Of a stretch of DNA of 58,954 nt, positions 7,372 to 36,211 are shown in pieces. The stretch is from the IMG/VR virus record IMGVR_UViG_3300044997_000299, positions 1-58,954 of that record. One strand, written 5' to 3'. Below the pieces are notes generated by a model, which saw only the letters and a list, made by a program, of their open reading frames with translations, was not told where the DNA came from and did not search any database. Positions within the stretch are counted from its first letter, which is position 1. The number at the start of each line of letters is the position of its first letter. A program made the translations under genes and the position numbers. The stretch is from a virus (lineage: Duplodnaviria > Caudoviricetes).

Positions 7372-8922
7372 TTATGCAGCTAAGTCAACTGGAGTCCAAG
7401 TATTAGAAGCCCCTGTTTGCACCTCTGCCCATGTTGTAATATTAGCAGATCCCATAGTTAAATTCAACTGCATTCCTGTCAAATTTACGACTGCATTAGC
7501 AGTAACGTTAGTGCTTCCAACTGTTAAATTTAATTGTAATCCTGTTACATTATAGCCAAAATTAATATTTACTTGACCAGGAATTAAATTTATCTGTGAT
7601 CCAGAAACATTTACATTAACATCTACAATGATACCTTCATTACCGATCGCTAGATTAATTTGTGTTCCTGTAACTTCAGCTATAGTTTCAAGACCTCCTT
7701 CAACTTGTCCTATAGTTAAATTACTTTGTAATCCAGTAACGTCTACATTTGCAATTCCTGTAACGCTTAATGAACCAACAGAAACAACTAAAGTATGCTC
7801 TGCAACATTAACAAAAATATTACCATCTGCAGATATATCAATTGTTCCAACATCTGAATTAATTTGAGTTCCTGTTACAAAAACATTTGCATCTGCTACA
7901 ATATCTTCATTACCAATAGTAACATTAATTTGAGATCCGGTAACTGTTACTATTTTATCATCTTCCTCACCCCAAGAAACTTCGCCCCAAGCATTATTAC
8001 CCCAACCTGCGTCTGGTTGAAAATCGGTAATAACTGATCCTTCATCTAAATTTATTTGGAAACCTGTTACTGATAAATTACCATCCGCATTTGTATTAAC
8101 TGATGTTACAGATATATTATTTTGAATCCCTGTTAAATTAATATTTGCATCAGCTGCAACAGATTCGTTTCCAATTAGAGAATTAATTTGAATACCTGTA
8201 GCATCAATATTAGCGTTTGCTATAGTTGTAACTCCAGTTTGCAATACATTTAATTGAGATCCTGAAATAAAAATCTCTGTTACAATATTTTCAGTAACAC
8301 CAGTTATAGATAAATTAACTTGTGTTCCTGTTACATCAACAGCTGTTAATAAATTTATTGTTACTGAATTTTGTGCAACATTTATTTGTGTTCCAGTTAG
8401 ATTGACAACTATATCATTTTCTAGTCCCCATGGAACAGCTCCCCAAGTAGAAACTCCCCAACCTGCATCTGGTTGAAAGTCTGTAGTGATTATACCTTCA
8501 TCTACATTTATTTGAGATCCCGCTACATTTGTTTGAGTAAATATATCAACTGTTACAGAGCCAATATCAAAATTAACTTGACTCCCGGTAATATCAACGT
8601 TTGCACCTCCTGTTAAACTTACTCCAGTAATTGCAAAATTTATTTGTTGACCGGTTAAACTTACAGAAACGTCTGTAATTGCTGTTTCTTCACCAATAGA
8701 TAAATTTATTTGTGAGCCAGTTACCTCAGCAACATCTCCTAGAATTCCGTAAGTAAATTGTCCCCAACTATTTGAACCCCAGCCATTAACAAAAACAAAC
8801 TCTACGCTACCAATAGAAAGTTCTAAAGATAAAGCATCTCCGCCCCAACTATCAGCATTCCAAGTAGATTCACCAAATGCAAGGATGCCAGGTGACGTTA
8901 CAGGTACTGTTATGCCCGCCAC
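7372..8922 (-). CDS. repetitive acidic virion fiber/spike protein
   Basis: 516 aa; many (V/L)TGxQIN repeats and four WGxxxWGxxxWG-like modules. Confidence 0.65.
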   Translation of the reverse strand: MAGITVPVTSPGILAFGESTWNADSWGGDALSLELSIGSVEFVFVNGWGSNSWGQFTYGILGDVAEVTGSQINLSIGEETAITDVSVSLTGQQINFAITGVSLTGGANVDITGSQVNFDIGSVTVDIFTQTNVAGSQINVDEGIITTDFQPDAGWGVSTWGAVPWGLENDIVVNLTGTQINVAQNSVTINLLTAVDVTGTQVNLSITGVTENIVTEIFISGSQLNVLQTGVTTIANANIDATGIQINSLIGNESVAADANINLTGIQNNISVTSVNTNADGNLSVTGFQINLDEGSVITDFQPDAGWGNNAWGEVSWGEEDDKIVTVTGSQINVTIGNEDIVADANVFVTGTQINSDVGTIDISADGNIFVNVAEHTLVVSVGSLSVTGIANVDVTGLQSNLTIGQVEGGLETIAEVTGTQINLAIGNEGIIVDVNVNVSGSQINLIPGQVNINFGYNVTGLQLNLTVGSTNVTANAVVNLTGMQLNLTMGSANITTWAEVQTGASNTWTPVDLAA

Positions 8923-14808: not shown

Positions 14809-14826
14809 ACCCTACCTTTTTTGTTA

Positions 14827-15174: not shown

Positions 15175-15493
15175 TAAATAAAATTACATTTAAACTAGCA
15201 CTATTCCCGGTAATTCCAATTCCATCAATTATTCCTATACCATTTCTTTTGGCATATAAAACACCATCTTCTGGAATACTAAGTGTTTCTGTTTGATTAG
15301 CTCCAACTCTTACTGGAATAAAAACTTGCGTGTTAGTTGATGAACTTACTGTTGAAACTGTTGCCAATCCATTAATTATAACAGATCCAGCAGTTCCAGT
15401 TGATTGAACAGCATATCCTCTTAAACGTGTGGGTCCTGTAAATAATACAGCATTACTTGCACTCGATACGACTGGTTTTACATCTGACTTCAT
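15164..15493 (-). CDS. putative virion protein
   Basis: 109 aa; GPTRLRG and IPEDGVL; lies in the capsid module. Confidence 0.6.
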   Translation of the reverse strand: MKSDVKPVVSSASNAVLFTGPTRLRGYAVQSTGTAGSVIINGLATVSTVSSSTNTQVFIPVRVGANQTETLSIPEDGVLYAKRNGIGIIDGIGITGNSASLNVILFIDK

Positions 15494-15510
15494 AATTTTT
15501 TCCCTTTTAT

Positions 15511-15532
15511 AAGGAGCTCCGAAGAGCTCCTT
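15511..15532 (-). terminator. C(UUCG)G hairpin, weak terminator or processing site
   Basis: AAGGAGCTC-TTCG-GAGCTCCTT on the - strand; no long U tract follows. Confidence 0.55.
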
Positions 15533-15543
15533 AAATTAATTTA

Positions 15544-16065
15544 TTAAGCTGCAAAAGCAAAAGTACCTGTTGTTCCTGTGCTTGCTGGATTCATTTTAAA
15601 ATCAAAATTTATTGTCCATATACCATTTGTTGTACATGAAAAGAAAATTTTTGATCCAATACTAAATAAATTTGTAACAGCGTTGGCTGGTGTGTAAACA
15701 AGTCTTGTTTCACCTACAATTGACGTATCAAATGATACAGCACTTGCCGTTCTGCTTTCAACCACTGATCCTGTTTGAAATGCATCTGACCCTGCACAAT
15801 CAAAAATAAGAGTATTTGTACCACCAGTTGTATCAACTGATTGAGCATGCACTACTACCACGCCCACGTTTGCTTCTGGTAACGTTACAAGTTGTGCCGC
15901 AGCTCCTGTAAAATTATTTACTGTTATAGTATTTGCTACATAAGTTAAAGTTGCTGCTGTTGCAACTGTTGATACAGTTAATCCTGTGTAGCCAGGTGTT
16001 ATTGATCCAATAAATCCACTTCCGCTTTGGGAAAGGACTGGTCCTGAAAACGTAGTTTTTGCCAT
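15544..16065 (-). CDS. capsid decoration/minor capsid protein
   Basis: MAKTTFSGPV.S N-terminus, Thr/Ala-rich, follows the major capsid gene. Confidence 0.6.
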   Translation of the reverse strand: MAKTTFSGPVLSQSGSGFIGSITPGYTGLTVSTVATAATLTYVANTITVNNFTGAAAQLVTLPEANVGVVVVHAQSVDTTGGTNTLIFDCAGSDAFQTGSVVESRTASAVSFDTSIVGETRLVYTPANAVTNLFSIGSKIFFSCTTNGIWTINFDFKMNPASTGTTGTFAFAA

Positions 16066-16084
16066 ATTTATATTCTCCTAGTTT

Positions 16085-16144
16085 TTTTAATCTAGTCTCT
16101 AGGCCGTCTACTATACGCGTCTAGATTAAAAGTTAATGTATAGT
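16085..16144 (-). ncRNA. structured 5' leader with pseudoknot
   Basis: Stem 16121-16131/16085-16095; 5' ACUAUAC (16138-16144) pairs with loop GUAUAGU (16110-16116). Confidence 0.6.
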
Positions 16145-16150
16145 GAAATA

Positions 16151-16179
16151 ATTATAAATGAAAAAGGGGCCTGTGTAAA
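16151..16179 (-). promoter_or_regulatory. sigma70-type promoter embedded in capsid terminator
   Basis: TTTACA (16174-16179), 17 bp, TATAAT (16151-16156). Confidence 0.7.
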
Positions 16180-16191
16180 CACAAGCCCCTT
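16161..16191 (-). terminator. intrinsic terminator after major capsid gene
   Basis: AGGGGCTTGTG-TTTA-CACAGGCCCCT followed by a T tract on the - strand. Confidence 0.85.
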
Positions 16192-16210
16192 AATAAAAAC
16201 TTAATTTATA

Positions 16211-17119
16211 TTAAGCTCCTGGTGATCCGAAGACTCCTCTAGGATCAGAGAATCCAAAAGAATATCTCTCTCTAGCTTTAAATCTTGTATTACCAGTGTC
16301 AAAGTCACCTTCAATCGCTGTTCTTAATGGAGCTCTTACAAAATGCTTAAGTCCATTAGGAGCATCAGTCATGATGAAAAACGCATCACTATCAGTTAAG
16401 AAATTGTTGATTCTATAACCCTCTGGAATCATTCCCATATTCTTAAGTGCATTGATATCGTTATCAGCAGTGCTAACTCTAAGAGGTGATTTTAAAATTC
16501 TCTCTGCAGTAAATTGTAATTCTTTTGGAATTATTAATTTTCTGCCTTGTAGAGCAATTTTTAATCCTCTCTCGTCAACAAATGCTTGAATGTCGATTAA
16601 AGATTGTTCAAGTGAAGTTTCGGATAAATCAGCTGCTGTTGATAATTCATTACTGAAAGTTCCGCCACTTACTAGAGGATGATCAGTAGCACAAAGCTCT
16701 TTTCCATCTCCTCCAGGGAAGCTTGAACTAAACGCATTGTTTAGTACAGCCGCCGCTTTAACTTGTTTTGTGTTAGCCATAGATCTTGCTAACGCTCTTG
16801 TGTAACGAGCCGCTAATCGATCATACAAATTATCTTCAATTGCTTCTTCAGTAATTGCAAAAGCAAGAGCAATAGTTTCATGTGTGTATCTAGCTGTAAA
16901 GCTTTCTACTGCATCATCAAATTCTACTGCTGCACCTTCATTTTTTACTGGAGCAGAACCAAAACCTGATAACATTACTTCCTCCTCGAAAGCTCTGTCT
17001 GAAGTTTCAGTTGAAAATATTTCAGTATGCTGATTTTCGTATCGTGCATATTCCAAGCCGAACAAAGCGTTCAGACCTGGCTCTAGTTCTTTAACTAGTT
17101 GTGCTCTTGAAATAGCCAT
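16211..17119 (-). CDS. major capsid protein
   Basis: MAISRAQLVKELEPGLNALFGLEY...SDRAFEEEV...KARERYSFG.SDPRG. Confidence 0.92.
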   Translation of the reverse strand: MAISRAQLVKELEPGLNALFGLEYARYENQHTEIFSTETSDRAFEEEVMLSGFGSAPVKNEGAAVEFDDAVESFTARYTHETIALAFAITEEAIEDNLYDRLAARYTRALARSMANTKQVKAAAVLNNAFSSSFPGGDGKELCATDHPLVSGGTFSNELSTAADLSETSLEQSLIDIQAFVDERGLKIALQGRKLIIPKELQFTAERILKSPLRVSTADNDINALKNMGMIPEGYRINNFLTDSDAFFIMTDAPNGLKHFVRAPLRTAIEGDFDTGNTRFKARERYSFGFSDPRGVFGSPGA

Positions 17120-17131
17120 AGTTTAAACTCC

Positions 17132-17710
17132 TTATGCTTTGCCGACGGTACCAGCACGGTACTCGTGAGCGTTAATTAATACTAGTACACCAACATTTGA
17201 TGTAGTCTGATCAGAGTTATCTGGATCTTGAGATATATCAATTGCTTTAAGTACAAAAGTTGTTGCCGCAGAAATTGTTGAGGCATCCAATGCTTCTTTT
17301 GATACTCCTGAGAGTGTACTTCCAACTGTAGCCACAATACTGTAGTTTCCAAACAAATCAGCATTTGGGAATGATTCGTCAGATGCGATTGAGTAAACTA
17401 CATTTGGGTCATCTATTACATTGGCAATAATGTTATTCGCACTTATTGAACCAGGGTAAAAGTTTTTAAAAGTTGGCTTTTGTGTTGTAGGATCAGTATA
17501 AAACACTCCATTAAATACTCCAACAACAGGATTGTCACCAGCAGCCGCTCTTTCGATTGTACCATTAGTAACAGTTTTAACTAGATCCCCTTGAAATATG
17601 GCTGTGCCATAATTTTTCAAGATTCTATATCTGTTTTGAGAGTTATTAAACGGCGTGCCACCAAGCATCCTAACAGGTGTTAAGCCAGATGGTTTTTGTG
17701 TGTTAGCCAT
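17132..17710 (-). CDS. capsid-associated (cement/decoration) protein
   Basis: IFQGDLV, GVFNGVFYTDP, VIDDPNV; directly upstream of the capsid gene. Confidence 0.65.
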   Translation of the reverse strand: MANTQKPSGLTPVRMLGGTPFNNSQNRYRILKNYGTAIFQGDLVKTVTNGTIERAAAGDNPVVGVFNGVFYTDPTTQKPTFKNFYPGSISANNIIANVIDDPNVVYSIASDESFPNADLFGNYSIVATVGSTLSGVSKEALDASTISAATTFVLKAIDISQDPDNSDQTTSNVGVLVLINAHEYRAGTVGKA

Positions 17711-27951: not shown

Positions 27952-28118
27952 TTTTTTTTTGGTTTTTTACCAGCTTTTTTCATCGATATAGCAATAGCTG
28001 CTTGTCTTGCTAAACCACCTTTTACTTTACCCAACCTTACACAATTAGGAACTAATTTATTTCCTTTTTTCTTCATTCCTTTTTGTTCGTATCCATGCCA
28101 ACAAGTCCCTCTAGCCAT
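27948..28118 (-). CDS. small basic protein (start revised to MARGTCW)
   Basis: CW.GY...GMKKKG..LVPNCV motif. Confidence 0.65.
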   Translation of the reverse strand: MARGTCWHGYEQKGMKKKGNKLVPNCVRLGKVKGGLARQAAIAISMKKAGKKPKKK

Positions 28119-29589
28119 AGTATTGATACTCCGCTGGTAATCTTGATTGTTTCTCTTCAACAAAATCATGTTGAGCACTGATAAAATTACCTTCTCGATA
28201 TCTTAACACAGCTTGAGTGGTGCTGTCGACTAGGTCATCATGATCTCCATTTGGAAAGGAAGCACATTCTTCAATTACTTCTAAGGCAAATTGTTTACCC
28301 TCTGGATAATAAACCATACCTGATGCAAAGATTGGTGCACAAGCGTTTACTCTAGAATGTTTATCCCTTCCTCTTCCAGGCACAAAATCTAAAACAGGTA
28401 TTCCCATTCTACGTAATTCTTGTATCAGAGGCATACCTGATGCTTTTGCTTCAATGACCACGGACTCTGGTTTCCAATAATTATATTGTTCTAACGCGAT
28501 AGATTTTAATTCTGGAAATTCATATCTACCTCTTATTGAGTCTAATAAAATTAAACATGTTGGAGAATCATCGTATGGTTTAAATATTCCCCAAGTTGTA
28601 ATCGCAGAATAATCTGAAGTTTCTTTTTTTGTAAATGCAGTATCATAGCTTTGTATAACATATTGCAGAGCAGGTATTTGTCCTTGCCAAGGAATCCACC
28701 ATTCACGTTTAATTAATGCACCTTCTTCTGCTGTTGGATTTTGCATATATTGTGCATTCCATCTTTTAGGAGGTATAGATGCTTTAACAGATTCTAATTC
28801 TTCAATACGCCAATACTCTGGCCATACAGGTTGTCCGCTGTCCAAGATTGCTGGAAATTGTATTACCTCCCAATTATCTGCTCTTTCATTTACTTGTGCT
28901 TTCAAAAGTTGTCCTGTTAAATCATTTGTTGCCCAGCGTGTCATAACAATCACAATCGCTCCACCTGGTTGTAAACGCTGACGAGGTCCAGACACATACC
29001 AGTCATAAGTTTTTTCCATAGCATTCTCTGACATGATATTTTGTTCAGTATGAGGGTCATCAATAATTAAAAAATCAGCACCTCTACCGGTTATTGCACC
29101 ACCGACGCCGGCTGCAAAATATTCACCACCATGATTTGTTTCCCAACGACCAGCAGCTTTTGAATCTTCTGATAAATCCAAATTATTAAAAACTTTTTTA
29201 TACTCCTCCCCCTGTATCAAGTTTCTTACTTTTCTACCAAATCGAAAAGATAATTCTGCGTTGTGAGAGACTTGCATAATTTTAGACTTGGGCAGGAGTC
29301 CCATGATCCATGCCGGAAAAAGATAAGAGGCAAACTCTGATTTTGTATGTCTAGGTGGCATGTTGACTATTAATCTTTTAATTTTGCCTTGAGCAACTTG
29401 AGTCAACTTATCCGCAATAATTTGATGGTGCCCCCATGTAGAAGGTTCCTTACCCTCTCTGCAAATAAAATCTGGCCAGACTTGTTTAACAAAATAAATA
29501 AAATTTTCTCTGGCTAATAGTATCTTTTGTGCCTTTAAAAGTTTTGCAGTTTTTTCTAATTTTTCACGAGGGACTAGCTCCAAATTCAT
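28111..29589 (-). CDS. terL: terminase large subunit (start revised to MNLELV)
   Basis: PPRHTKS Walker A-like, IIDDPH Walker B, SYDTA, IEAKASG, HDDLVDS nuclease motifs. Confidence 0.92.
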   Translation of the reverse strand: MNLELVPREKLEKTAKLLKAQKILLARENFIYFVKQVWPDFICREGKEPSTWGHHQIIADKLTQVAQGKIKRLIVNMPPRHTKSEFASYLFPAWIMGLLPKSKIMQVSHNAELSFRFGRKVRNLIQGEEYKKVFNNLDLSEDSKAAGRWETNHGGEYFAAGVGGAITGRGADFLIIDDPHTEQNIMSENAMEKTYDWYVSGPRQRLQPGGAIVIVMTRWATNDLTGQLLKAQVNERADNWEVIQFPAILDSGQPVWPEYWRIEELESVKASIPPKRWNAQYMQNPTAEEGALIKREWWIPWQGQIPALQYVIQSYDTAFTKKETSDYSAITTWGIFKPYDDSPTCLILLDSIRGRYEFPELKSIALEQYNYWKPESVVIEAKASGMPLIQELRRMGIPVLDFVPGRGRDKHSRVNACAPIFASGMVYYPEGKQFALEVIEECASFPNGDHDDLVDSTTQAVLRYREGNFISAQHDFVEEKQSRLPAEYQYYG

Positions 29590-29722
29590 AAGTAAAATGC
29601 AGTATATATTTGTGTCAATGTTTGCACAAGTCAACGACTGTAAGATACATCTGCAGTTTTAAGGGGGTGTAGGGTGCTAGAAGTATGTTTTAATAGGTTG
29701 CAAGAAATAGAGATACTAATTT

Positions 29723-29749
29723 AACTAGGGCGTGAAACACGCCCTAGTT
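29723..29749 (-). terminator. 12-bp perfect hairpin closing the early region
   Basis: aactagggcgtg-aaa-cacgccctagtt. Confidence 0.7.
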
Positions 29750-29758
29750 GTAAGATAG

Positions 29759-30046
29759 TTAGTGTTGTGTTGTTTGCCGATTAGCCATGTCCCTTTGTAC
29801 GTTAAACTTGTCCGCCAAGTCTTGAGATAATTCACGTCCGAAGTTAGCTATTTTCAAGTCACTCTGATTCGCGATAATAAATTCAAATATCTTCGAATCA
29901 AGATAACTAGCTAATAGTTGCCAATCGATAAATTGTATTTTGTTTTTAAAAGTATCGATTTGTTTTTTTAACTCAATAATTATCTCATCACTACTTTTAT
30001 TTTGAGACACAATCTGGTTAAGTTTTTCTAATTCGAATTTTTTCAT
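29759..30046 (-). CDS. hypothetical early protein
   Basis: 95-aa ORF coupled to upstream gene. Confidence 0.65.
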   Translation of the reverse strand: MKKFELEKLNQIVSQNKSSDEIIIELKKQIDTFKNKIQFIDWQLLASYLDSKIFEFIIANQSDLKIANFGRELSQDLADKFNVQRDMANRQTTQH

Positions 30047-30372
30047 ATTAACTCCTTAATGTCATGAGTATATGAGGTTCGAATAGACTTTGTCGAGAAC
30101 TTTTTAAACAATTCCATATTGTCTTTTTTAAAGTCCTCTTGAGAAAAAATATTTATCTCTTTAACATCTTTGTTAATCGAATAAATAAATTTATCTTTTT
30201 GTATCGTTAGATTATTTGTTTTTAACAAATCAAAAAGTTGAACTAATTCTGGCTTGATAATTCTATTCCAGTCAGAATTTAACTCCGCTTTTTTTTCTAA
30301 CAAATCACACGCGCGAACTATCAACTGTTTATTTTTAGTTGATAATTCTATTTTTGTTTTTTGTTTTGTCAT
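30043..30372 (-). CDS. hypothetical early protein (start revised to MTKQK)
   Basis: GAAAGGGA RBS before ATG at 30372. Confidence 0.65.
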   Translation of the reverse strand: MTKQKTKIELSTKNKQLIVRACDLLEKKAELNSDWNRIIKPELVQLFDLLKTNNLTIQKDKFIYSINKDVKEINIFSQEDFKKDNMELFKKFSTKSIRTSYTHDIKELI

Positions 30373-30402
30373 TGTTTCCCTTTCATTAGTTATTAATGAC
30401 AA

Positions 30403-30436
30403 TAATTATCTTATATACATAAGATAATTAAAACAA
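30403..30436 (-). promoter_or_regulatory. promoter with palindromic operator 1
   Basis: TAATTATCTTAT-ATAC-ATAAGATAATTA; TTGTTT-17-TAAGAT on the - strand. Confidence 0.75.
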
Positions 30437-30602
30437 GAAATATTTTTAATTATGTACAATTATTTTTTTACTGTTGCTTCTTTGCAACATTCATATCAAA
30501 TTTAAAAATCTAATGTTTAAAACCAAAACACTACCCTGCAACCAACTCCACCAGTTCCACCGTTGTCAGCTGCATCCCATCCGCTGCTTTAATAAATTAA
30601 TC

Positions 30603-30636
30603 ACGGAACGGGAACAGGATGGGAAACGGGACGGGA
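30603..30636 (+). repeat. GGGAAC-type G-tract cluster A
   Basis: acggaacgggaacaggatgggaaacgggacggga (4 GGG runs). Confidence 0.85.
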
Positions 30637-30732
30637 TTAGAGAAGAAGTAAAATTAAAAATAAAAGTAAAAGCAATTGGCCTGCTGTGGTAAACAACAGG
30701 CCAATCACTGCAAGGATTGAAATCCAAAACAT
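30637..30732 (-). CDS. 31-aa hydrophobic membrane micropeptide (not in ORF track)
   Basis: MFWISILAVIGLLFTTAGQLLLLLFLILLLL; TAATG-coupled to the upstream gene. Confidence 0.65.
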   Translation of the reverse strand: MFWISILAVIGLLFTTAGQLLLLLFLILLLL

Positions 30733-30965
30733 TAAACCACTACTTCAATCCAAGTATCATTCCTTAAAACTTTTTTAACTTGATTGATGTAAACTGATCC
30801 GGCCTCATCGAACAAACCAACCTCTGACCCTTTACAGTCAACTAAGATTGTCTGTTTAAGACCGCGACCTTGTTTCGGTGACTCCAAAAGAACGCCGGAA
30901 GTTTCAAGACCTAACTGATTTGTTTTTACTTTATCACCTTTTTTTAACTCTATTGCTTTTATCAT
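30732..30965 (-). CDS. hypothetical early protein
   Basis: 77 aa, AGGAG RBS. Confidence 0.75.
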   Translation of the reverse strand: MIKAIELKKGDKVKTNQLGLETSGVLLESPKQGRGLKQTILVDCKGSEVGLFDEAGSVYINQVKKVLRNDTWIEVVV

Positions 30966-30983
30966 AGTGCTCCTTTTGTTTGT

Positions 30984-31026
30984 TATCTTATATACATAAG
31001 ATAGCTTATTACTGAAGTCAAGTCAA
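30984..31026 (-). promoter_or_regulatory. promoter with palindromic operator 2
   Basis: TATCTTATATACATAAGATA (30984-31003), identical to copy 1; TTGACT-17-TATCTT. Confidence 0.75.
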
Positions 31027-31102
31027 AAATAGAAAAAATTGCAGGGAGATCCAGGATGCGCTGGATGGTATTATTATTAACATCTGCAAACAAGTCACGC
31101 AT

Positions 31103-31141
31103 CACGGAACGGGAACGGGACGGGCGACCGTGGTCGCCCGT
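31103..31141 (+). repeat. G-tract cluster B with GC hairpin
   Basis: cacggaacgggaacgggacggg; acgggcgacc-gt-ggtcgcccgt. Confidence 0.8.
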
Positions 31142-31152
31142 GAACTTTTAAT

Positions 31153-31746
31153 TTAGCAAATTTTAAAACCGCCTGACTCTTCGGCAAACTCTGCGAACTC
31201 TTGAACGTTTTTTATATTAAACGGATAATCGCCAGTCCAGTCTTTTTTATTTTGTATTACGTTCCATTTTTCGTAATCTTCTTTAGGATAATCACGCGGA
31301 GCAATACCCATTCCATGCTTTTTTACCATTTCTTGATGGAACTTTTGCGCCTCTTCTTCAACTTTTTTGTTGTGTGCCTCTGCTTTCTTATAATCTGCCA
31401 TGTGTTGTTCGGCATACATTTTTGTATGTCCGACCTTAATTAAATGTTTTAACTGTTTAGCAATTTCTCTTGCAACAGTTTCATTTACCTTAAAACCACT
31501 ATTCTCGTGCCAGTAGTCTACATGTTCTTCTTCCACACAACCAGTGAACTCGATTATATAATTCGCAAGAGGTCTCCACCACCAAACATTATTGCGAAAG
31601 TAATAACCTTTGTTCTCTTCTTCAAACTTGTCCATCTGCTTGAAGTAATCGTCTTTTTCTTTTTCGGTTGCTGTGTTCCAGTCTATTTTAGGTTTCACAG
31701 AACCTTCTTTAATTTTCGGATTTAATCCGTACACGTCCATACCCAT
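31153..31746 (-). CDS. conserved early phage protein
   Basis: MGMDVYG...YFRNNVWWWRPL...YPF...FAEF...SGGF.IC. Confidence 0.8.
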   Translation of the reverse strand: MGMDVYGLNPKIKEGSVKPKIDWNTATEKEKDDYFKQMDKFEEENKGYYFRNNVWWWRPLANYIIEFTGCVEEEHVDYWHENSGFKVNETVAREIAKQLKHLIKVGHTKMYAEQHMADYKKAEAHNKKVEEEAQKFHQEMVKKHGMGIAPRDYPKEDYEKWNVIQNKKDWTGDYPFNIKNVQEFAEFAEESGGFKIC

Positions 31747-31772
31747 GGTTGCTCCTTATGTTGTTTATTTAT

Positions 31773-31805
31773 TATCTTATATATATGAGATACTTTTAAA
31801 GTCAA
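31773..31805 (-). promoter_or_regulatory. promoter with palindromic operator 3
   Basis: TATCTTATATATATGAGATA (31773-31792); TTGACT at 31800-31805. Confidence 0.7.
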
Positions 31806-31925
31806 TTAACTTTTTAGTTGTATTTAAAATAAATCATATTAGTCCTCTCAATGCAGGAATTTCCGCACCTTTTTCCGATGCAGCTACCTTCAGGATGGTG
31901 AACTTCTCTTTGATTAATCAAGACT

Positions 31926-31957
31926 ACGGGAACGGGACGTGGGATGCGGGAACGGGA
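31926..31957 (+). repeat. G-tract cluster C
   Basis: acgggaacgggacgtgggatgcgggaacggga (5 GGG runs). Confidence 0.85.
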
Positions 31958-32050
31958 CTACATCAACAAAATCAACAGAAGCAGCAGAGCTACCTGCCCT
32001 GGTACTGTGAACAGCAGCAGGGCAAGTAATAATAGTAACAACCAAAACAT
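31958..32050 (-). CDS. 30-aa hydrophobic micropeptide, paralog of 30637-30732 (not in ORF track)
   Basis: MFWLLLLLLALLLFTVPGQVALLLLLILLM; no obvious SD. Confidence 0.55.
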   Translation of the reverse strand: MFWLLLLLLALLLFTVPGQVALLLLLILLM

Positions 32051-32065
32051 GATGCGGGAACGGGA
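32051..32065 (+). repeat. G-tract cluster D; 15-bp direct repeat of 31943-31957
   Basis: gatgcgggaacggga. Confidence 0.85.
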
Positions 32066-32076
32066 TCAGCTTTTGT

Positions 32077-32175
32077 CTATTTTAAATTAGGCCTTGTAAC
32101 TCTATCTCTAATAGTTCCTGCAAACTCAGGATAAAGAATCGCAATGAGTGCAGGAACTATTATTAATGTCCACAT
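32077..32175 (-). CDS. 32-aa membrane micropeptide (not in ORF track)
   Basis: MWTLIIVPALIAILYPEFAGTIRDRVTRPNLK; starts right after the upstream stop, AAAGG RBS. Confidence 0.55.
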   Translation of the reverse strand: MWTLIIVPALIAILYPEFAGTIRDRVTRPNLK

Positions 32176-32176
32176 G

Positions 32177-32416
32177 TTACGCTACCTTTTTCCGATGACC
32201 AAACAAATCTAAGATGTGTGTATCCAGAATTTCCCACGAGATGCCAACATTTGCATCATGATACTTCAAACACAAATCAAGAACTTGACGGCATTCCTCC
32301 TTGTTTAGTCTGATATTTATGTTTTGGGCTTGTTCCTTAACGTCTTCGACATTCCACAAAATGGAGATGTGATCATCATCAACCCAACCCCACTTCGGTA
32401 ATTTTTTCTTTCTCAT
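32177..32416 (-). CDS. hypothetical early protein
   Basis: W..EDV...L...ECR.VL......HDA..GISW motif. Confidence 0.75.
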   Translation of the reverse strand: MRKKKLPKWGWVDDDHISILWNVEDVKEQAQNINIRLNKEECRQVLDLCLKYHDANVGISWEILDTHILDLFGHRKKVA

Positions 32417-32418
32417 AA

Positions 32419-32598
32419 TTAAAACCTAATTGGTTCAGCTTTTCTAAAATCGTCTTCAAGAAAAATTGGCTCTCCTGATATTTCATAGCCCGCTTGTTCT
32501 ATTAAAATTTTTTTAGCCATTCTTTCATTTTTTGCATAGATCTTATATTGCATAGTTGCAGGTATATCGTATACAAAAAGTTTATTTTTATTTTTCAT
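32419..32598 (-). CDS. 59-aa hypothetical early protein (not in ORF track)
   Basis: MKNKNKLFVYDIPATMQYKIYAKNERMAKK...; fills an operon gap. Confidence 0.6.
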   Translation of the reverse strand: MKNKNKLFVYDIPATMQYKIYAKNERMAKKILIEQAGYEISGEPIFLEDDFRKAEPIRF

Positions 32599-32599
32599 T

Positions 32600-32902
32600 T
32601 TAATATTTTAATTTAATTTGATTAGGCCTTGTAACTCTATCTCTACCAGTTTCATAAAACAAAGTATCATGAAGTTTCCATTTTTTAAGATGACGAGCTT
32701 CGTTGGCCACAGTCCCAAAACCACGGCGCTGAGTTCCTGATCTTATCTGCACCCACATCTTTTCGTTTACATTACCTTCAGTAAACCATACGTAAACAAA
32801 ATTTTTAAAGTCCTTTAATAGTTCTTGTTTTTTTATTTTGAAGTAAGTTTCTTTACCGTGCTCTTTGCACGTATAAATCATATTTTCTTTCGGCTTCTGC
32901 AT
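32600..32902 (-). CDS. hypothetical early protein (DUF2314-like EKMWV motif)
   Basis: EKMWV...G...N; AGGAG RBS. Confidence 0.7.
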   Translation of the reverse strand: MQKPKENMIYTCKEHGKETYFKIKKQELLKDFKNFVYVWFTEGNVNEKMWVQIRSGTQRRGFGTVANEARHLKKWKLHDTLFYETGRDRVTRPNQIKLKY

Positions 32903-32934
32903 CGTGGCTCCTTTTGTTAATTGTTAAAGCAAAC

Positions 32935-32972
32935 TGTCCCATACATATAAGATAAGTAATTCCTAATGTCAA
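32935..32972 (-). promoter_or_regulatory. promoter with degenerate operator 4
   Basis: TGTCCCATACATATAAGATA (32935-32954); TTGACA-17-TATATG. Confidence 0.7.
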
Positions 32973-33100
32973 GTATAATTTTAAAATATTTTTCTACTAC
33001 GCCACAGATTGTGACGCACCGACCACAGACCTTGGTGAGCAGCATGCTACCCTGGTGAAGTAGAATCCTGATCCGTGATTCGATGTTTGTGGATCTTGGC

Positions 33101-33131
33101 TACGGGACGGGAACTAGAAACGGGAATGGGA
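33101..33131 (+). repeat. G-tract cluster E
   Basis: tacgggacgggaactagaaacgggaatggga. Confidence 0.8.
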
Positions 33132-33134
33132 GCT

Positions 33135-33197
33135 TAAAAATGGTAGCCCAACGGACACTAAACAGGAGCTAATTATTTAGAGGATGTCGAGCTACCG
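33135..33197 (-). ncRNA. candidate anti-Shine-Dalgarno small RNA 1
   Basis: Own promoter, 11-bp stem with G-U pairs, apical AUUAGCUCC loop, 3' U tract. Confidence 0.6.
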
Positions 33198-33203
33198 ACC
33201 ACA

Positions 33204-33232
33204 AATATAATCATCATGGGATGTGATGTCAA
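33204..33232 (-). promoter_or_regulatory. sigma70 promoter of sRNA 1
   Basis: TTGACA (33227-33232), 17 bp, TATATT (33204-33209). Confidence 0.75.
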
Positions 33233-33235
33233 CAA

Positions 33236-33670
33236 TTATTTTTTATTTGTTTTTGAACTTGCATCCTGGTGCCCTGAAGTAGATGCCTGATGGGTGATTA
33301 TCTTATTTAAAACCGCGGTCCATGAAACGGGGTGCGGGAAATGGGAAACGGGAAGCGTGAATAACGGATCAGGGTGCAAGCAAGAATTGTAGTCATAAAG
33401 TTTTACGGCCCTCAGCCTGAGGTCGAAATTTAAGATAAAAACTCTGCCACCAGCACTACCGCGTTTTAAAATCCACGCTTTTTGATATTTAGTTAATGAA
33501 GTTTGTTTTCTCTTTTTTACCTTCAACTCGAGCCAAAATTCAGTTCCTCGATAACATCCATTGACATCGGGAATGCCAAGTCCAACATTAGTTTCGATTC
33601 TTTGAAAGTGTACGTTTGGCAACGCTTTTTTTATTTTTTGGTATAGCTTCGATTCTTCTTTTTGCATCAA
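33236..33670 (-). CDS. VRR-NUC/Holliday-junction resolvase-like nuclease
   Basis: E..L...RIE...G.PD....FWLELK.......Q.AW.....GG..FIL. Confidence 0.8.
   Translation of the reverse strand: MMQKEESKLYQKIKKALPNVHFQRIETNVGLGIPDVNGCYRGTEFWLELKVKKRKQTSLTKYQKAWILKRGSAGGRVFILNFDLRLRAVKLYDYNSCLHPDPLFTLPVSHFPHPVSWTAVLNKIITHQASTSGHQDASSKTNKK
33329..33353 (+). repeat. G-tract cluster F (inside nuclease 3' tail)
   Basis: ggggtgcgggaaatgggaaacggga. Confidence 0.75.
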
Positions 33671-34016
33671 ATTTTCCGCAAACTAAATGCGTTTGTAGAT
33701 AGGGTAAAAACCATTTGTTATCTCTAAAAACTTGTGAAAGACTGTTTGAAATAGCGTTAACAATTAATTCCTCGTTTTTTTCTTTAAAAAGTAAATTTCC
33801 TTGTGAGCTAAGTCCCGCTTGATAGACACAAGCGTGAATAATTTCGTGTAAGAGGGTATTGGCCTCTGATCTAGCATTCTGTTCTTTTTGGATATCGATT
33901 TTAGCGTTGCTACTGTCATATTCTCCTAAAACATTATCATCCTTCTTGTCTTTTGTCTCAAAATTAATTAAATTAATTGCAATATCTTCAAATCCAATTT
34001 TAATCTTTTTTTTCAT
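33588..34016 (-). CDS. HEXXH metallopeptidase-like protein (start revised to MKKKIK)
   Basis: TLLHEIIHA...EE..VN; GGAG RBS. Confidence 0.75.
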   Translation of the reverse strand: MKKKIKIGFEDIAINLINFETKDKKDDNVLGEYDSSNAKIDIQKEQNARSEANTLLHEIIHACVYQAGLSSQGNLLFKEKNEELIVNAISNSLSQVFRDNKWFLPYLQTHLVCGKFDAKRRIEAIPKNKKSVAKRTLSKNRN

Positions 34017-34096
34017 TAGTTTTAATCTCCACCGCACCTAAAGACATGTTTAAGTGCTTGTTATGTACTCTATTAAACTGCACCCAAAAATCTTCT

Positions 34097-34603
34097 TTAA
34101 GAAGATTTTTTGTTTTCTTCGATTTCAAGGACTTTTTCAAACGATATCTCATCTTTAAGCTCATTGATTGTTTTGATTAATTCATCTTTTGTCATCGCTG
34201 ACAAGTCTTGCACTTTAATCTCTTTTCGATCAATGTAAAAGCCTGCTGCTTGCCCAAGCCTAAATTCTGCATTAATAGCCGCAGCAAGTTGGTTTTTATC
34301 TTCGGCTTTTTTTGAAAGTGAGTCTAATCTTTTTAAATGTCTTAAATAATCCTTATAGGTATTTGTTTTTGTCTCACGCAATCTTTCAATATACGCAACA
34401 ACATGAGGAAACTTATCTGGGTTTGTTAATAGACTTCCCCATTTACCAGTGGTTGTTTCGGCATAACCTGCGTGACGGGCAGCTTCTTGTTTTGTACAAT
34501 CAGGGTAATTAGCAACATAAAATTCTGCAAATGCACGTTGTTTACCAGTTAAAAGCTCAGCCCCTTTCAAATTTGCTTTAACTTCTTGAACTAAAGTTTC
34601 CAT
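34097..34603 (-). CDS. terS: terminase small subunit
   Basis: LT.KQRAFAEFY...EAARHAGY HTH; AAINAE..LG...G.YIDRKEI. Confidence 0.75.
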   Translation of the reverse strand: METLVQEVKANLKGAELLTGKQRAFAEFYVANYPDCTKQEAARHAGYAETTTGKWGSLLTNPDKFPHVVAYIERLRETKTNTYKDYLRHLKRLDSLSKKAEDKNQLAAAINAEFRLGQAAGFYIDRKEIKVQDLSAMTKDELIKTINELKDEISFEKVLEIEENKKSS

Positions 34604-34911
34604 GAATTTTTAATTATAATATAGATATTTCTATGTAAATAACACTGTAAAGGTAAGAAAAGTTTTCTTGTCCAGTAGAATAATAGTACATATATGTTAA
34701 CTATATTGATTATTATTGTTATTTTATTTGTATTTATTGAATTTAGTGTTCAGTGTACTTTCAGGGTAGTATGCTGAAAGAATAACTATTGGTATATCTA
34801 TCTTATTTGATGTTTTCAGCTTGTCAGTGTACTTTTAAGTTTATTTTTATGTAGAGACATGAAAAGGTCTAATGTATCTATATATGTGGCTGAAATTTGT
34901 GATTTAATTGA

Positions 34912-34968
34912 TTTTTTTGATGGTGGACTGAATGAATCAGCCCACCATAACTAATGAAAGGTAGGTGT
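34912..34968 (-). ncRNA. candidate antisense small RNA 2
   Basis: TGGACA/TG-A-TATAAA promoter (~34973-35002), single-stranded CCUACCUUUCAUUAGUU, then a 12-bp hairpin with a G-U pair. Confidence 0.5.
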
Positions 34969-35046
34969 GTTATTTATATCACAGTCCGTGATCCGTTGTC
35001 CACACCCCTGCGTTCAATAATTGCCTAAATTAATGCAGGCAATAGG

Positions 35047-35202
35047 TTAATTGTCCTTATCGTCCTCGTCTTGATCTTTCAGATCTTCATCTTCATCTTC
35101 ATCTTGTATTTCAAGAACTGACTTAATATTTTCTACGTCAGATTCTAGTTTTTCGATTTTTTCTTGTAGTTGTTCTATAACGTTTTTGTTGTCTTCACTC
35201 AT
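35047..35202 (-). CDS. 51-aa acidic coiled-coil peptide (not in ORF track)
   Basis: MSEDNKNVIEQLQEKIEKLESDVENIKSVLEIQDEDEDEDLKDQDEDDKDN; AGGAG RBS. Confidence 0.7.
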   Translation of the reverse strand: MSEDNKNVIEQLQEKIEKLESDVENIKSVLEIQDEDEDEDLKDQDEDDKDN

Positions 35203-35225
35203 TGTATTCTCCTATTTTTTTTATT

Positions 35226-35381
35226 TTACTCTTCGTCTTCGTCTTCGTCTTGGTTCTTATCTTCATCCTCGTCATTTTCAACATCATTTTCGAGCTCTAT
35301 TACCTTATCTCGTAAAGCAATTAAATCATCTTCAATTCTGTCGATAATGTCTTGGATTGTTTCTTTTTTTTTCTTTCCCAA
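35226..35381 (-). CDS. 51-aa acidic coiled-coil peptide, TTG start (not in ORF track)
   Basis: MGKKKKETIQDIIDRIEDDLIALRDKVIELENDVENDEDEDKNQDEDEDEE; GGAGG RBS. Confidence 0.7.
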   Translation of the reverse strand: MGKKKKETIQDIIDRIEDDLIALRDKVIELENDVENDEDEDKNQDEDEDEE

Positions 35382-35507
35382 AATCTACCTCCACGAGGCC
35401 AAATATACAAAAAATTATATGGGATAAAGCCCCGTAAAAGCCTTAATTTTCGCGATGTATGCTCAGTAGACGATAAATGCTCAATAGACTATGAAAATTA
35501 AAAATAT

Positions 35508-35633
35508 TTATTTTTTAAATGTTTTAAATAAATCTTCTGCAGCATCTGTGTAAAACTTTTGAATATTATTAAAATAATTGCTCCAAAATGCTTTAACATC
35601 ACTATAAGAAGGTATTATAAATAGTTTTTCCAT
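35508..35633 (-). CDS. 41-aa amphipathic peptide (not in ORF track)
   Basis: MEKLFIIPSYSDVKAFWSNYFNNIQKFYTDAAEDLFKTFKK; CAGGAG RBS. Confidence 0.65.
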   Translation of the reverse strand: MEKLFIIPSYSDVKAFWSNYFNNIQKFYTDAAEDLFKTFKK

Positions 35634-35680
35634 GTTATTTCTCCTGTTTTCTAAATATATATGTTGCAGTGCAACAAAAT

Positions 35681-36211
35681 TCAAGTGGTTAAATGCTCAA
35701 TCATATTATTTTTAGCAATGAGCTTACAAATCATTATAAAATCTTTCAAATTCAAATTATTTTTCATGCTATTAATAATAGCACAGCAAAATACAAGGTT
35801 ACCATCTATGTAGGGTTTTGTACTATCAATCCGATCAATAGAAATATTATATAAAGTTTTACCAACACCTAACGTGTGCGTCATTTCAATTCCAGAGTAC
35901 GGACACCGCATTCCAAATTTTTGATATTGTTCTTGCCAAACATCTAAAAACTCACTTAATGAAATTAAACATTCGGCTCTTTTTGAATTTTTACGTTGTC
36001 TATTTAATCCTTGATAAGTTCGTCTTACAAAAGCAATTGAATTCAAAGACCATCTTTGTTTTTGTTCCTTATTTTTACAATCCTTACACCAAGAATCAAG
36101 GGTTTCTCGATCACCTCTTTTATAAAAAAGTGTTGATAATTTTTTTTGTTTGCATTTTGGACAATTTTTATAAGAAGTTTCCTGTGCCGTTGTCAATGTT
36201 TCTTCGTTCAT
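35681..36211 (-). CDS. Cys-rich HNH-like endonuclease
   Basis: CPKC...CKDC; RCPYSG...SIDRIDS.KPY..GN....C...N.MK. Confidence 0.75.
   Translation of the reverse strand: MNEETLTTAQETSYKNCPKCKQKKLSTLFYKRGDRETLDSWCKDCKNKEQKQRWSLNSIAFVRRTYQGLNRQRKNSKRAECLISLSEFLDVWQEQYQKFGMRCPYSGIEMTHTLGVGKTLYNISIDRIDSTKPYIDGNLVFCCAIINSMKNNLNLKDFIMICKLIAKNNMIEHLTT

What the first reader, a model, noticed from the sequence alone, without database searches (positions are those of the whole stretch)
34912..35002. Second sRNA candidate with a 15-nt perfect antisense match to an early-gene RBS 4.5 kb away
Seen: TGGACA plus an extended TG-A-TATAAA promoter on the - strand, an unpaired 5' arm ACACACCUACCUUUCAUUAGUU, then a 12-bp hairpin with a G-U pair. 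Bases 34947-34961 are the exact reverse complement of 30379-30393, the leader/SD of the 30043-30372 gene. The same arm pairs 11 nt over the start codon of the HEXXH gene (34011-34021) and 9 nt with the speD RBS (14811-14819). Inference: together with sRNA 1 this suggests a multi-sRNA translational timing network. Caveats: no U tract follows the hairpin, and the + strand could instead be read as an RBS plus a 17-codon GTG ORF.
Basis: partly seen in the sequence, partly recalled or inferred. Interest (0 to 1): 0.8.

Follow-up and report, generated by a model that had tools for sequence, protein, structure and literature searches.

The report
Candidate antisense RNA in freshwater pelagiphage
Upstream of a lake phage's packaging genes lie a conserved promoter-like site, a C/U-rich single strand and a hairpin that probably make an RNA whose 5' end pairs with the ribosome-binding site of another phage gene, but there are no expression data and nothing shows that it is a separate small RNA.

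Summary
The 15-nt match alone is not beyond chance: the genome has 18 maximal inverted exact matches of 15 nt or more, against a mean of 10.3 in shuffles.

The window is a whole 58,954-bp freshwater relative of HTVC023P-type pelagiphages. The element heads the 443-nt spacer upstream of a terS-like gene.

Support from relatives:
- 14 other distinct sequences keep the promoter-like hexamers, a palindrome in the spacer, the C/U-rich arm and the hairpin.
- The hairpin covaries, and its G.U pairs exist only in - strand RNA.
- Arm and target leader changed together in six linked lineages plus one unlinked pair. Cognate duplexes average -19.2 kcal/mol against -16.9 permuted; 0.48% of permutations do as well.
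- Control inverted matches decay in relatives; this one does not.

Against a discrete sRNA:
- There is no U tract and no terminator before terS.
- Half the arm is predicted to be paired in cis in most relatives.
- The target site is no clear energetic outlier in four of six relatives' loci.
- There are no RNA data.

Verdict: a real - strand RNA element. Antisense control of the 30043-30372 gene is plausible (about 0.45). The "sRNA", "early gene" and "network" claims are unproven.

The parts
34997..35002 (-). -35-like hexamer: TGGACA in the window, TTGACC in most relatives.
   Evidence: Of 15 distinct sequences, 10 have TTGACC, 3 have TAGAC(G/T), and 2 have TGGACA (the window and L079). Homology between the window and most relatives begins here.
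34978..34992 (.). Palindrome ATCACGGACTGTGAT in the promoter spacer; candidate operator for a dimeric regulator.
   Evidence: It is a perfect 7+1+7 palindrome in most relatives. In the L012 group both half-sites changed symmetrically, ACCACG...CGTGGT. The motif with up to 3 mismatches occurs 8 times in the window, against 0.34 expected.
34973..34981 (-). Extended -10-like TG-A-TATAAA (TATATA in the L012 group).
   Evidence: Not listed by the consensus scan, because it lacks the final T. A transcription start near 34966-34968 is inferred only.
34949..34968 (-). C/U-rich, G-poor 5' arm ACACCUACCUUUCAUUAGUU, which resembles an anti-Shine-Dalgarno sequence.
   Evidence: Mean P(unpaired) is 0.88 in the window. 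CACAC(C)UACC is nearly invariant in 15 distinct sequences.
34947..34961 (-). The 15 nt exactly complementary to the leader of the 30043-30372 mRNA.
   Evidence: Its last two bases are also the two outermost pairs of the hairpin.
34920..34948 (-). 12-bp G+C-rich hairpin with a 5-nt loop.
   Evidence: -20.2 kcal/mol, z -5.18; 11 of 12 variants are more stable as - strand RNA; 89.7% of cells paired, 5 of 11 pairs changed on both sides, 0 of 500 shuffles as high.
34912..34918 (-). A tract after the hairpin. In several relatives the A-rich 3' flank pairs with the arm.
   Evidence: 0 U among the 8 bases after the stem.
34604..34911 (-). Rest of the spacer down to terS: a nearly invariant block with four CTGAA-type repeats, then an A+T-rich tract. 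No terminator-like site.
34097..34603 (-). terS-like gene, the first gene downstream of the element.
   Evidence: phrog_641 9.3e-07 and phrog_51 1.7e-06. PF03592 2.2e-4, below the cut-off; 44% identity to the annotated terS of HTVC023P.
30379..30393 (-). Proposed target site AUAACUAAUGAAAGG in the mRNA leader, at -21 to -7 of the start codon, including the Shine-Dalgarno.
30043..30372 (-). Proposed target gene: 109 aa, no known family, found only in the freshwater clade.
   Evidence: 23 homologues at 76-92% identity, none with a Pfam domain..
30405..30429 (.). 25-nt palindrome overlapping the -10 of the target gene's own promoter. It is one of three copies.
   Evidence: (family D7: 30405, 30982, 31771).

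Best explanation
A regulated, host-type (sigma-70-like) promoter at 35002-34973 starts a - strand RNA near 34966. A palindromic operator sits in its spacer.

The first ~20 nt of the RNA are a C/U-rich single strand that resembles an anti-Shine-Dalgarno sequence. The next 29 nt form a stable hairpin. The single strand base-pairs with positions -21 to -7 of the mRNA of the separately promoted gene 30043-30372. This covers its Shine-Dalgarno and so blocks ribosome binding, or exposes the mRNA to decay.

There is no intrinsic terminator. The RNA is therefore most likely the 5' leader of the terS/packaging transcript, or a fragment left by pausing or processing at the hairpin, rather than a classical terminated sRNA. 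Firing of this promoter would then couple packaging-gene transcription to shut-off of that gene.

Shown: the sequence features, the hairpin as - strand RNA, and the co-variation of arm and target. Inferred: the start site, the RNA's 3' end, the direction of the effect (repression), and the timing.
For: 1. The features and the exact 15-nt complementarity over the SD are present.

2. The module is kept in 14 other distinct sequences of the freshwater clade, drawn from the 41 fetched relatives' loci that hold the full spacer (42 with the window; 21 distinct spacers). Homology to most of them begins at the -35.

3. The hairpin works as - strand RNA.
- 11 of 12 variants are more stable on that strand (mean -20.6 against -16.9 kcal/mol), and 8 of 12 carry G.U pairs.
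- 5 of 11 pairs changed on both sides; 0 of 500 shuffles reach this.

4. Arm and target changed together. The core between ACUAA and AAAGG reads, arm complement / target:
- window: UG / UG
- L062: CA / UG (two G.U pairs)
- L057: CA / CUG (a bulge plus one G.U)
- L058: CG / CUG (a bulge)
- L060: CAG / CAG (14 perfect pairs)
- L077: CAA / CAG (one G.U)
- L079 (arm) and L094 (target) overlap over 314 nt at 98.4% identity. Both carry an extra U, ACUUAAC, seen in no other lineage.

5. Cognate duplexes are stronger than permuted ones.
- With 6 pairs: -18.5 against -17.0 kcal/mol, 3.3% of 720 permutations as good.
- With 7 pairs: -19.2 against -16.9 +/- 0.8, 0.48% of 5040 permutations.
- 4 of 7 arms bind their own target type best.

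6. Empirical control.
- There are 17 other exact inverted pairs of at least 11 nt in 29700-35010.
- When both arms changed, these controls keep a mean of 0.48 of their duplex energy in relatives (n=37 comparisons).
- The focal pair keeps 0.83 (minimum 0.75; 4 of 6 relatives could be mapped).
- The three control pairs that link the D7-like site at 32955 to the D7 copies keep 0.80-0.96. One further control pair (34547/30697) keeps 0.81 in its single comparison.

7. The site ranks 2nd of about 5,900 - strand windows in the genome. It ranks 1st in L151 and L152.

8. The genome has no sigma-factor hit. The HTVC027P paper's section on host transcription has a sentence, cut in the passage shown to me, that begins 'As HTVC027P does' just after discussing phage-encoded RNA polymerase (PMC12753301, passages).
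Against: - There are no expression data. No RNA run is listed for this DNA.
- There is no U tract after the hairpin (0 of 8 bases). Three other strong - strand hairpins in this genome do have U-rich tails, so the phage uses canonical terminators elsewhere.
- No terminator-like site lies between 34604 and 34950.
- The -10 lacks the usual final T, and the scan did not list the site.
- In most close relatives the 3' half of the arm is predicted to pair with the A-rich 3' flank, extending the stem to about 21 bp. Mean P(unpaired) is 0.49-0.64.
- In relatives' own loci the target ranks only 2nd (L150, L146, L077) or below 6th (L070), with energies inside the background.
- My own tally of changes on the lineages is about 6 that keep or improve pairing against about 5 that erode it, mostly at the hairpin-proximal end.
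- There are only about six independent lineages, and the terS tree is star-like. The seventh pair is not on one contig.
- The module is absent from 37 other loci searched, including HTVC023P and HTVC027P. No complement longer than 13 nt was found in 21 distant loci.
- The 15-mer alone is at chance level.
Confidence: 0.45

Rival explanations
1. The element is only a structured 5' leader of the terS/late operon. It would consist of a regulated promoter plus a hairpin that serves mRNA stability, RNase III-type processing or processive antitermination. The complementarity to the distant RBS would then be an ancestral coincidence between an anti-SD-like stretch and an SD, with no function.
For: - It sits at the head of the packaging and structural gene block, with no terminator before terS.
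- In most relatives the arm joins an extended stem of about 21 bp, at -28 to -30 kcal/mol.
- The target site is not an energetic outlier in 4 of 6 relatives' loci.
- The 15-mer is at chance level within the genome.
- Any C/U-rich stretch pairs with SD regions. The best site genome-wide is another RBS, at 8943, with -21.1 kcal/mol.
- Marine relatives carry other hairpins and a palindrome at the same place, but no such complementarity.
Against: - The same changes occur in arm and target: UG/UG, CAG/CAG and the shared extra U.
- The permutation results are 3.3% and 0.48%.
- Retention is 0.83, against 0.48 for control inverted matches.
- The window, L079 and L013 have free arms and the best complementarity.
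Confidence: 0.35
2. The signal is at the DNA level. The two 15-bp inverted repeats would be sites for one sequence-specific DNA-binding protein, or crossover sites or footprints of an inversion of the 4.5-kb terS segment.
For: - The repeats flank the terS-to-target segment.
- In HTVC027P the terS segment lies inverted relative to HTVC023P.
- Sites that must match one protein would also change together.
Against: - In all 14 loci that hold both sites (13, including the window, plus L077), arm and target lie on the same strand, 4.27-4.77 kb apart.
- No strand-changing joint was seen in four metagenome runs, though these are contigs only.
- There is no serine or tyrosine recombinase hit in a genome estimated 97% complete.
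- The repeats are not identical in 5 of 7 lineages. Where they differ by transitions, the differences are all in the G.U-compatible direction for - strand RNA.
- The hairpin's G.U pairs point to RNA.
Confidence: 0.08
3. The + strand is the functional one. It would carry an RBS-like GAAAGG followed by GTG and a tiny ORF, and/or the 31-codon ORF at 34859-34954 that runs through the hairpin.
For: - The arm's complement reads as an SD followed 5-6 nt later by GTG.
- The 31-32-aa ORF is intact in 11 of 21 distinct spacers. It shows an in-frame 3-nt indel and some synonymous changes.
Against: - The 31-aa ORF lacks ATG or is truncated in 10 of 21 spacers: 5 have ATA and 9 are truncated, with 4 showing both.
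- The GTG frame is 1-12 codons long and not conserved.
- The ATG at 34955 is absent from all relatives.
- The hairpin's wobble pairs would be A.C mismatches on this strand.
- All but one long gene lie on the - strand.
Confidence: 0.04

Closest known systems
   Same: Both are phage RNAs made from the upstream part of a transcription unit. Both pair with a ribosome-binding region lying further downstream in the same direction and block translation.
   Different: - c4 is a processed, about 77-nt structured RNA that pairs through loop sequences with a target about 100 nt away in its own operon.
- Here the pairing part is a linear 5' arm and the target is 4.5 kb away behind its own promoter.
- Processing is unknown here, and there is no sequence or Rfam similarity.
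Trans-encoded base-pairing sRNAs of bacteria and prophages, such as DicF and other phage-derived sRNAs. I saw only the search listing and the start of the abstract of PMC12197685.
   Same: Both have their own promoter-like site, a single-stranded seed complementary to an SD region, and a stem-loop after the seed.
   Different: There is no Rho-independent terminator, no evidence of a discrete short transcript, and no known chaperone. The seed is partly paired in cis in most relatives.
Promoter-proximal leader elements of phage late operons: lambda PR'/qut with 6S RNA, HK022 put RNAs, and the RNase III sites of T7 (recalled)
   Same: The position matches: directly behind a regulated promoter at the head of the late or packaging genes. 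A DNA element sits between -35 and -10, and a conserved stem-loop lies in the first 50 nt.
   Different: No terminator follows for an antiterminator to overcome. No Q-, N- or put-like features were tested or found. The window's stem is only 12 bp. None of these elements is known to co-vary with a distant RBS.
Intrinsic (Rho-independent) terminator
   Same: Both have a stable G+C-rich hairpin.
   Different: The hairpin is followed by A7, not U. On the opposite strand the T run comes before the stem, so it fits neither strand.

Membership tests
Trans-encoded base-pairing sRNA | Own promoter | tested here: inconclusive
   The -35/-10-like hexamers are conserved in 15 of 15 distinct sequences. However, the -10 lacks the final T, the scan did not list the site, and there is no start-site data.
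Trans-encoded base-pairing sRNA | Rho-independent terminator that defines a short transcript | tested here: not met
   There are 0 U among the 8 bases after the stem in the window. Only L079 (UUUU) and the L012 group (UUU) have a few. No terminator-like site lies before terS.
Trans-encoded base-pairing sRNA | Seed complementary to the target's translation-initiation region and kept in relatives | tested here: met
   There are 15 pairs at -21 to -7. Coupled changes occur in 6 linked lineages plus 1 unlinked pair. The permutation results are 3.3% and 0.48%. Retention is 0.83, against 0.48 in controls. Strength is moderate: in 4 of 6 relatives' loci the target is not the best site.
Trans-encoded base-pairing sRNA | Detected as a discrete RNA | not testable with these tools
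   No RNA run is listed for this DNA.
Any Rfam family | Score at or above the family's gathering threshold | tested here: not met
   There were 0 matches in the whole window at gathering thresholds. In 34560-35100 the only hit up to E=5 was a 16-bit chance hit, against a threshold of 37.
Intrinsic terminator | G+C-rich stem followed directly by a U tract | tested here: not met
P1 c4-type antisense RNA | Encoded upstream of its target in the same transcription direction | tested here: met
   Arm and target lie on the - strand, with the arm 4.27-4.77 kb upstream, in all 14 loci that hold both.
P1 c4-type antisense RNA | Processed small RNA that pairs through loops | tested here: not met
   The complementary bases lie in the linear 5' arm, not in the loop. 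Processing is not testable here.
Small protein gene on the opposite strand | Open frame and start codon kept in relatives | tested here: not met
   The ORF is intact in 11 of 21 distinct spacers and broken or startless in 10 of 21. The GTG frame is 1-12 codons long.
Site-specific DNA inversion system | A recombinase gene and identical inverted sites, with both orientations found | tested here: not met
   There is no PF00239 or PF00589 hit. The sites differ in 5 of 7 lineages. Only one orientation is seen in the 14 loci.

The most novel reading that the evidence does not exclude
The 5' end of the packaging/late-operon mRNA is itself a riboregulator. Its anti-Shine-Dalgarno-like arm co-evolves with the ribosome-binding site of a separately promoted gene 4.5 kb downstream and silences it. 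In some lineages the arm is held in check by a target-like 'mimic' sequence just 3' of the hairpin. Switching on packaging transcription would then switch off that gene, without any dedicated sRNA gene or terminator.
Probability: 0.25. Interest if true: 0.65.

Novelty: new member of a known kind. Interest (0 to 1): 0.45.

Why it matters
[quoted passage not shown] They appear to rely on host RNA polymerase. Their temporal gene classes are arranged as a mosaic, and nothing is known about how the timing is set.

A phage RNA whose seed and target co-vary across uncultured lake genomes would be a first concrete post-transcriptional control point in this group. My searches for 'pelagiphage' with 'small RNA' found 2 papers, and neither is about such an RNA.

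It would also show that sRNA-target pairs can be supported from metagenomic co-variation alone when the host is hard to grow.

If the complementarity turns out to be idle, the finding still marks a regulated promoter and a conserved RNA hairpin at the head of the packaging genes.

Tried and rejected
- RNA evidence. No RNA holder is listed for window 30000-36000; the 7 holders listed are DNA lake-water metagenomes. I laid contigs of 4 of these runs on 30300-35050. They showed no variant at the arm or target and no strand-changing joint, so they added no haplotype.
- More haplotypes.
  - A pattern scan of viral contigs returned the same 14 contigs.
  - Genome contigs gave 2 loci, neither from the freshwater clade.
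- Distant relatives. The covariance model R1 found only the 15 sequences it was built from. The other matches up to E=1 were 3 weak hits elsewhere in the window and reverse-strand hits on the hairpin; there were none in 37 other loci. No complement of 14 nt or more links the spacer to the rest of 21 distant loci.
- Rfam gave nothing.
- HEXXH start pairing. It is specific to the window and decays in relatives, so I rejected it as a target.
- speD RBS pairing. It was not testable, because the loci do not reach it.
- A boxA/nut-like reading of the marine relatives' leader was considered from memory only and not pursued.
- Function of the target protein. There was no PHROG or Pfam hit. The atlas gave only 'hypothetical protein' viral clusters.
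- The PF00940 search is uninformative, because its control rang nowhere.
- Supplementary Table S3 of PMC12753301 (temporal classes of HTVC027P genes) was not requested, since supplements are closed. It could bear on the timing of terS-region genes, but the target gene has no marine homologue.
- The terS tree is nearly unresolved, so changes could not be polarised formally.

Full report
**What the window is.** The 58,954-bp window is the whole record, a single contig estimated 97% complete. It is about 32% G+C, and nearly all long ORFs lie on the - strand. Its large terminase is 68% identical to that of Pelagibacter phage HTVC023P and 65% identical to that of HTVC027P. The DNA is held by lake-water metagenomes. 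It is therefore a freshwater relative of the HTVC023P-type pelagiphages.

The finding lies at the upstream end of a 443-nt spacer (34604-35046). On one side is a 51-codon acidic ORF (35047-35202). On the other is a terS-like gene at 34097-34603 (phrog_641 9.3e-07; 44% identity to the annotated terS of HTVC023P). terL is at 28111-29634. The proposed target gene (30043-30372) sits between terS and terL, behind its own promoter. That promoter is overlapped by a 25-nt palindrome that occurs three times in this interval. I found no sigma-factor domain. The RNA polymerase family search is uninformative, because its control rang nowhere.

**Check of the observation.**
- TGGACA at 35002-34997;
- an 18-nt spacer;
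- TG-A-TATAAA at 34981-34973;
- a G-poor stretch;
- a 12-bp hairpin at 34948-34920 with one G.U pair;
- A7 after the hairpin.

The hairpin folds at -20.2 kcal/mol with z -5.18. Bases 34947-34961 are the exact reverse complement of 30379-30393. That site lies at -21 to -7 of the start codon and covers the GAAAGG Shine-Dalgarno. The shorter matches at 34011-34021 and 14811-14819 are also exact, and the latter gene is an AdoMet decarboxylase.

The 15-mer is not remarkable on its own. The genome holds 18 maximal inverted exact matches of at least 15 nt, against a mean of 10.3 (range 5-17) in 30 dinucleotide shuffles. For an arm fixed beforehand the chance is 0.1-0.6%, but the arm was chosen after the fact.

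**Relatives.**
- The terS protein brought in 55 viral loci and 78 metagenome loci. The target protein brought in 10 loci.
- Forty-two loci, the window included, hold the full spacer, giving 21 distinct sequences.
- Across the promoter-arm-hairpin module there are 15 distinct sequences.
- The -35 is TTGACC in 10 of them, TAGAC(G/T) in 3 and TGGACA in 2. The extended -10 is kept in all.
- Homology between the window and most relatives starts exactly at the -35.
- The spacer holds a palindrome, ATCACGG-A-CCGTGAT. In the L012 group its two halves changed symmetrically, which is what a site for a dimeric protein would do.
- The motif is over-represented in the window: 8 matches with up to 3 mismatches, against 0.34 expected.

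**The hairpin is an RNA structure on the - strand.**
- All twelve distinct variants fold into 10-14-bp stems of -18 to -23 kcal/mol.
- Eleven of the twelve are more stable as - strand RNA than as the opposite strand (mean -20.6 against -16.9). Eight carry G.U pairs that would be A.C mismatches on the other strand.
- On the MAFFT alignment 89.7% of cells pair, and 5 of 11 pairs changed on both sides. None of 500 shuffles reaches these values, and slid controls fall to 26-54% paired.
- This holds although the L012 group is misaligned by one column in that alignment.
- Stem comparisons show several G-C to A-U double changes.

Six distinct arm/target combinations lie on single contigs, with the two sites 4.27-4.77 kb apart. 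The core between ACUAA and AAAGG reads, arm complement / target:

| Lineage | Arm complement / target | Pairing |
|---|---|---|
| window | UG / UG | 15 perfect pairs |
| L062 | CA / UG | 15 pairs, two of them G.U |
| L057 | CA / CUG | one bulge plus one G.U |
| L058 | CG / CUG | one bulge |
| L060 | CAG / CAG | 14 perfect pairs |
| L077 | CAA / CAG | one G.U |

- Every transition difference is in the direction that gives G.U rather than A.C in - strand RNAs.
- A seventh pair comes from two contigs that overlap over 314 nt at 98.4% identity, while their nearest other relatives are about 85% identical. L079 supplies the arm and L094 the target. Both carry an extra U (ACUUAAC) seen in no other lineage.
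- No other arm binds the L094 leader well (-9.7 to -16.0 kcal/mol), whereas the L079 arm does (-23.3).
- With six pairs, cognate duplexes average -18.5 against -17.0 for permuted pairs, and 3.3% of 720 permutations do as well.
- With seven pairs, they average -19.2 against -16.9 +/- 0.8, and 0.48% of 5040 permutations do as well.
- Four of seven arms bind their own target type best.

As an empirical null I took the 17 other exact inverted pairs of at least 11 nt in 29700-35010.
- When both arms had changed in a relative, these controls kept on average 0.48 of the window's duplex energy (37 comparisons).
- The focal pair kept 0.83 (minimum 0.75). Four of six relatives could be mapped; L151 and L152 could not be mapped by BLAST.
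- The three control pairs that link the D7-like site at 32955 to the D7 copies also stay high (0.80-0.96). One further control pair (34547/30697) reaches 0.81 in its single comparison.

**What speaks against a classical sRNA.**
- No U tract follows the hairpin. On the opposite strand the T run lies before the stem, so it is a terminator on neither strand.
- The phage does use canonical hairpin-plus-U terminators elsewhere: 3 of 9 strong - strand hairpins have them.
- No terminator-like site lies before terS. A transcript from this promoter should therefore run into terS.
- In most close relatives the 3' half of the arm is predicted to pair with the A-rich 3' flank, which itself resembles the target. 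The stem then reaches about 21 bp at -28 to -30 kcal/mol, with P(unpaired) of 0.49-0.64. The arm is free in the window (0.88), L079 (0.80) and L013 (0.77).
- In relatives' own loci the target site is the best site only in L151 and L152. It ranks 2nd in L150, L146 and L077 and below 6th in L070, with energies inside the background.
- My own tally of changes is roughly six that keep or improve pairing against five that erode it. The erosion is mostly next to the hairpin.
- Only about six independent lineages exist, and the terS tree is unresolved.
- The module is confined to the freshwater clade. Distant relatives show no comparable complementarity.
- No RNA data could be found.

**Other readings.**
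- Opposite-strand coding is unlikely. The 31-codon ORF is intact in 11 of 21 spacers and broken or startless in 10. The GTG frame is 1-12 codons long. The ATG at 34955 is missing in all relatives.
- A DNA-inversion reading was prompted by the inverted terS segment of HTVC027P. It finds no recombinase, non-identical repeats in five of seven lineages, and only one orientation in 14 loci.
- Pairing with the HEXXH gene start is specific to the window (retention 0.40).

**Most likely mechanism.** A regulated host-type promoter starts a - strand RNA. Its first ~20 nt, which resemble an anti-SD sequence, pair with the SD region of the 30043-30372 mRNA, and the following hairpin stabilises or structures the RNA. 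Because there is no terminator, the RNA is probably the leader of the terS transcript or a fragment of it. I put this at 0.45. I put a purely cis-acting leader element with idle complementarity at 0.35, DNA-level explanations at 0.08 and opposite-strand coding at 0.04.

**Comparison with what is known.**
- The closest known analogue in logic is the c4 antisense RNA of P1/P7 (recalled), an upstream RNA that blocks a downstream RBS. Its architecture differs.
- The element fails the terminator criterion of classical sRNAs.
- It matches no Rfam family.
- Phage-derived sRNAs are an established class (PMC12197685, search listing and start of abstract only).
- I found no paper on such RNAs in pelagiphages.
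- If real, it is a new member of a known kind.

Noticed in passing
window 30405-30429, 30982-31006, 31771-31795; a related half-copy near 32945-32975: A 25-nt palindrome (core TATCTTAT-N-ATAAGATA) overlaps the -10 of three separately promoted small genes between terS and terL. It looks like a shared operator. It stays conserved in relatives: the control pairs that link the half-copy near 32955 to these copies keep 0.80-0.96 of their duplex energy.
   Followed up: partly
window 30560-30623, 31070-31125, 31900-32070, 33080-33135 (- strand): C-rich, G-poor CCCGTT-type repeat tracts sit in the spacers downstream of genes, and several end in CCGTGAT. That is a half-site of the palindrome in the candidate's promoter spacer. 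They may be Rho-utilisation sites or regulator-binding sites.
   Followed up: partly
window 34740-34890, then the A+T-rich stretch 34660-34740: A nearly invariant block holds four CTGAA-type repeats (GTACACTGA...). All copies are replaced together in other lineages: by CAGAA in marine relatives, by CTAGGAAA in HTVC023P and by CTCCCAGTT in L185. An A+T-rich tract follows. This is the pattern of iterons that co-evolve with a binding protein, so it is a candidate pac site or origin next to terS.
   Followed up: partly
window 32903-33235 (- strand): A near-consensus promoter, TTGACA-17-TATATT, lies at 33232-33204. It is followed by about 270 nt without an ORF. That stretch is richer in G+C, contains CCCGT repeats, and ends at the next promoter. 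It is another non-coding RNA candidate.
   Followed up: no
L166 6450-6700, and likewise L154, L160, L138, L087, L173: Upstream of terS, marine relatives carry a hairpin with variable stems but a conserved loop (GAAGCGAGAGUGGAAC-like). They also carry a second G+C hairpin preceded by UUAGUUA, and a perfect palindrome GTTTCACGTGAAAC. No Rfam family matches.
   Followed up: partly
L189 (HTVC027P record 15254-17670) against L188 (HTVC023P): The terS segment (gp29-gp34) of HTVC027P is inverted relative to the flanking genes and to HTVC023P. It includes gp30, gp33 and gp34. The transcriptome paper puts these three genes in extra temporal clusters (PMC12753301, section 12).
   Followed up: no
window 34603 (terS start): The terS-like ORF has no Shine-Dalgarno in the window or in close relatives, whereas marine relatives have ACAGGAGC. 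A TTTACA-N15-TATAAT-like site ends only about 9 nt before the ATG, so a leaderless start is conceivable.
   Followed up: no
window 7372-8922: The gene shows 66-nt periodic internal repeats (families D1-D3) and has no Pfam hit. Its RBS at about 8943 is the best predicted partner of the arm genome-wide, at -21.1 kcal/mol.
   Followed up: no
L094 1-223 and L117 1-430: Both contigs begin with the same 17-nt adaptor-like sequence, followed by DNA unrelated to the phage. Their 5' parts therefore look chimeric.
   Followed up: partly
window 34703-34738: In three of the four lake metagenome runs laid (X4-X6), a short contig piece over this A+T-rich stretch has 10-20 times the depth of the rest and carries two 2-nt insertions; in X7 the same form is seen at depth 5. 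It seems to be shared with more abundant relatives.
   Followed up: no
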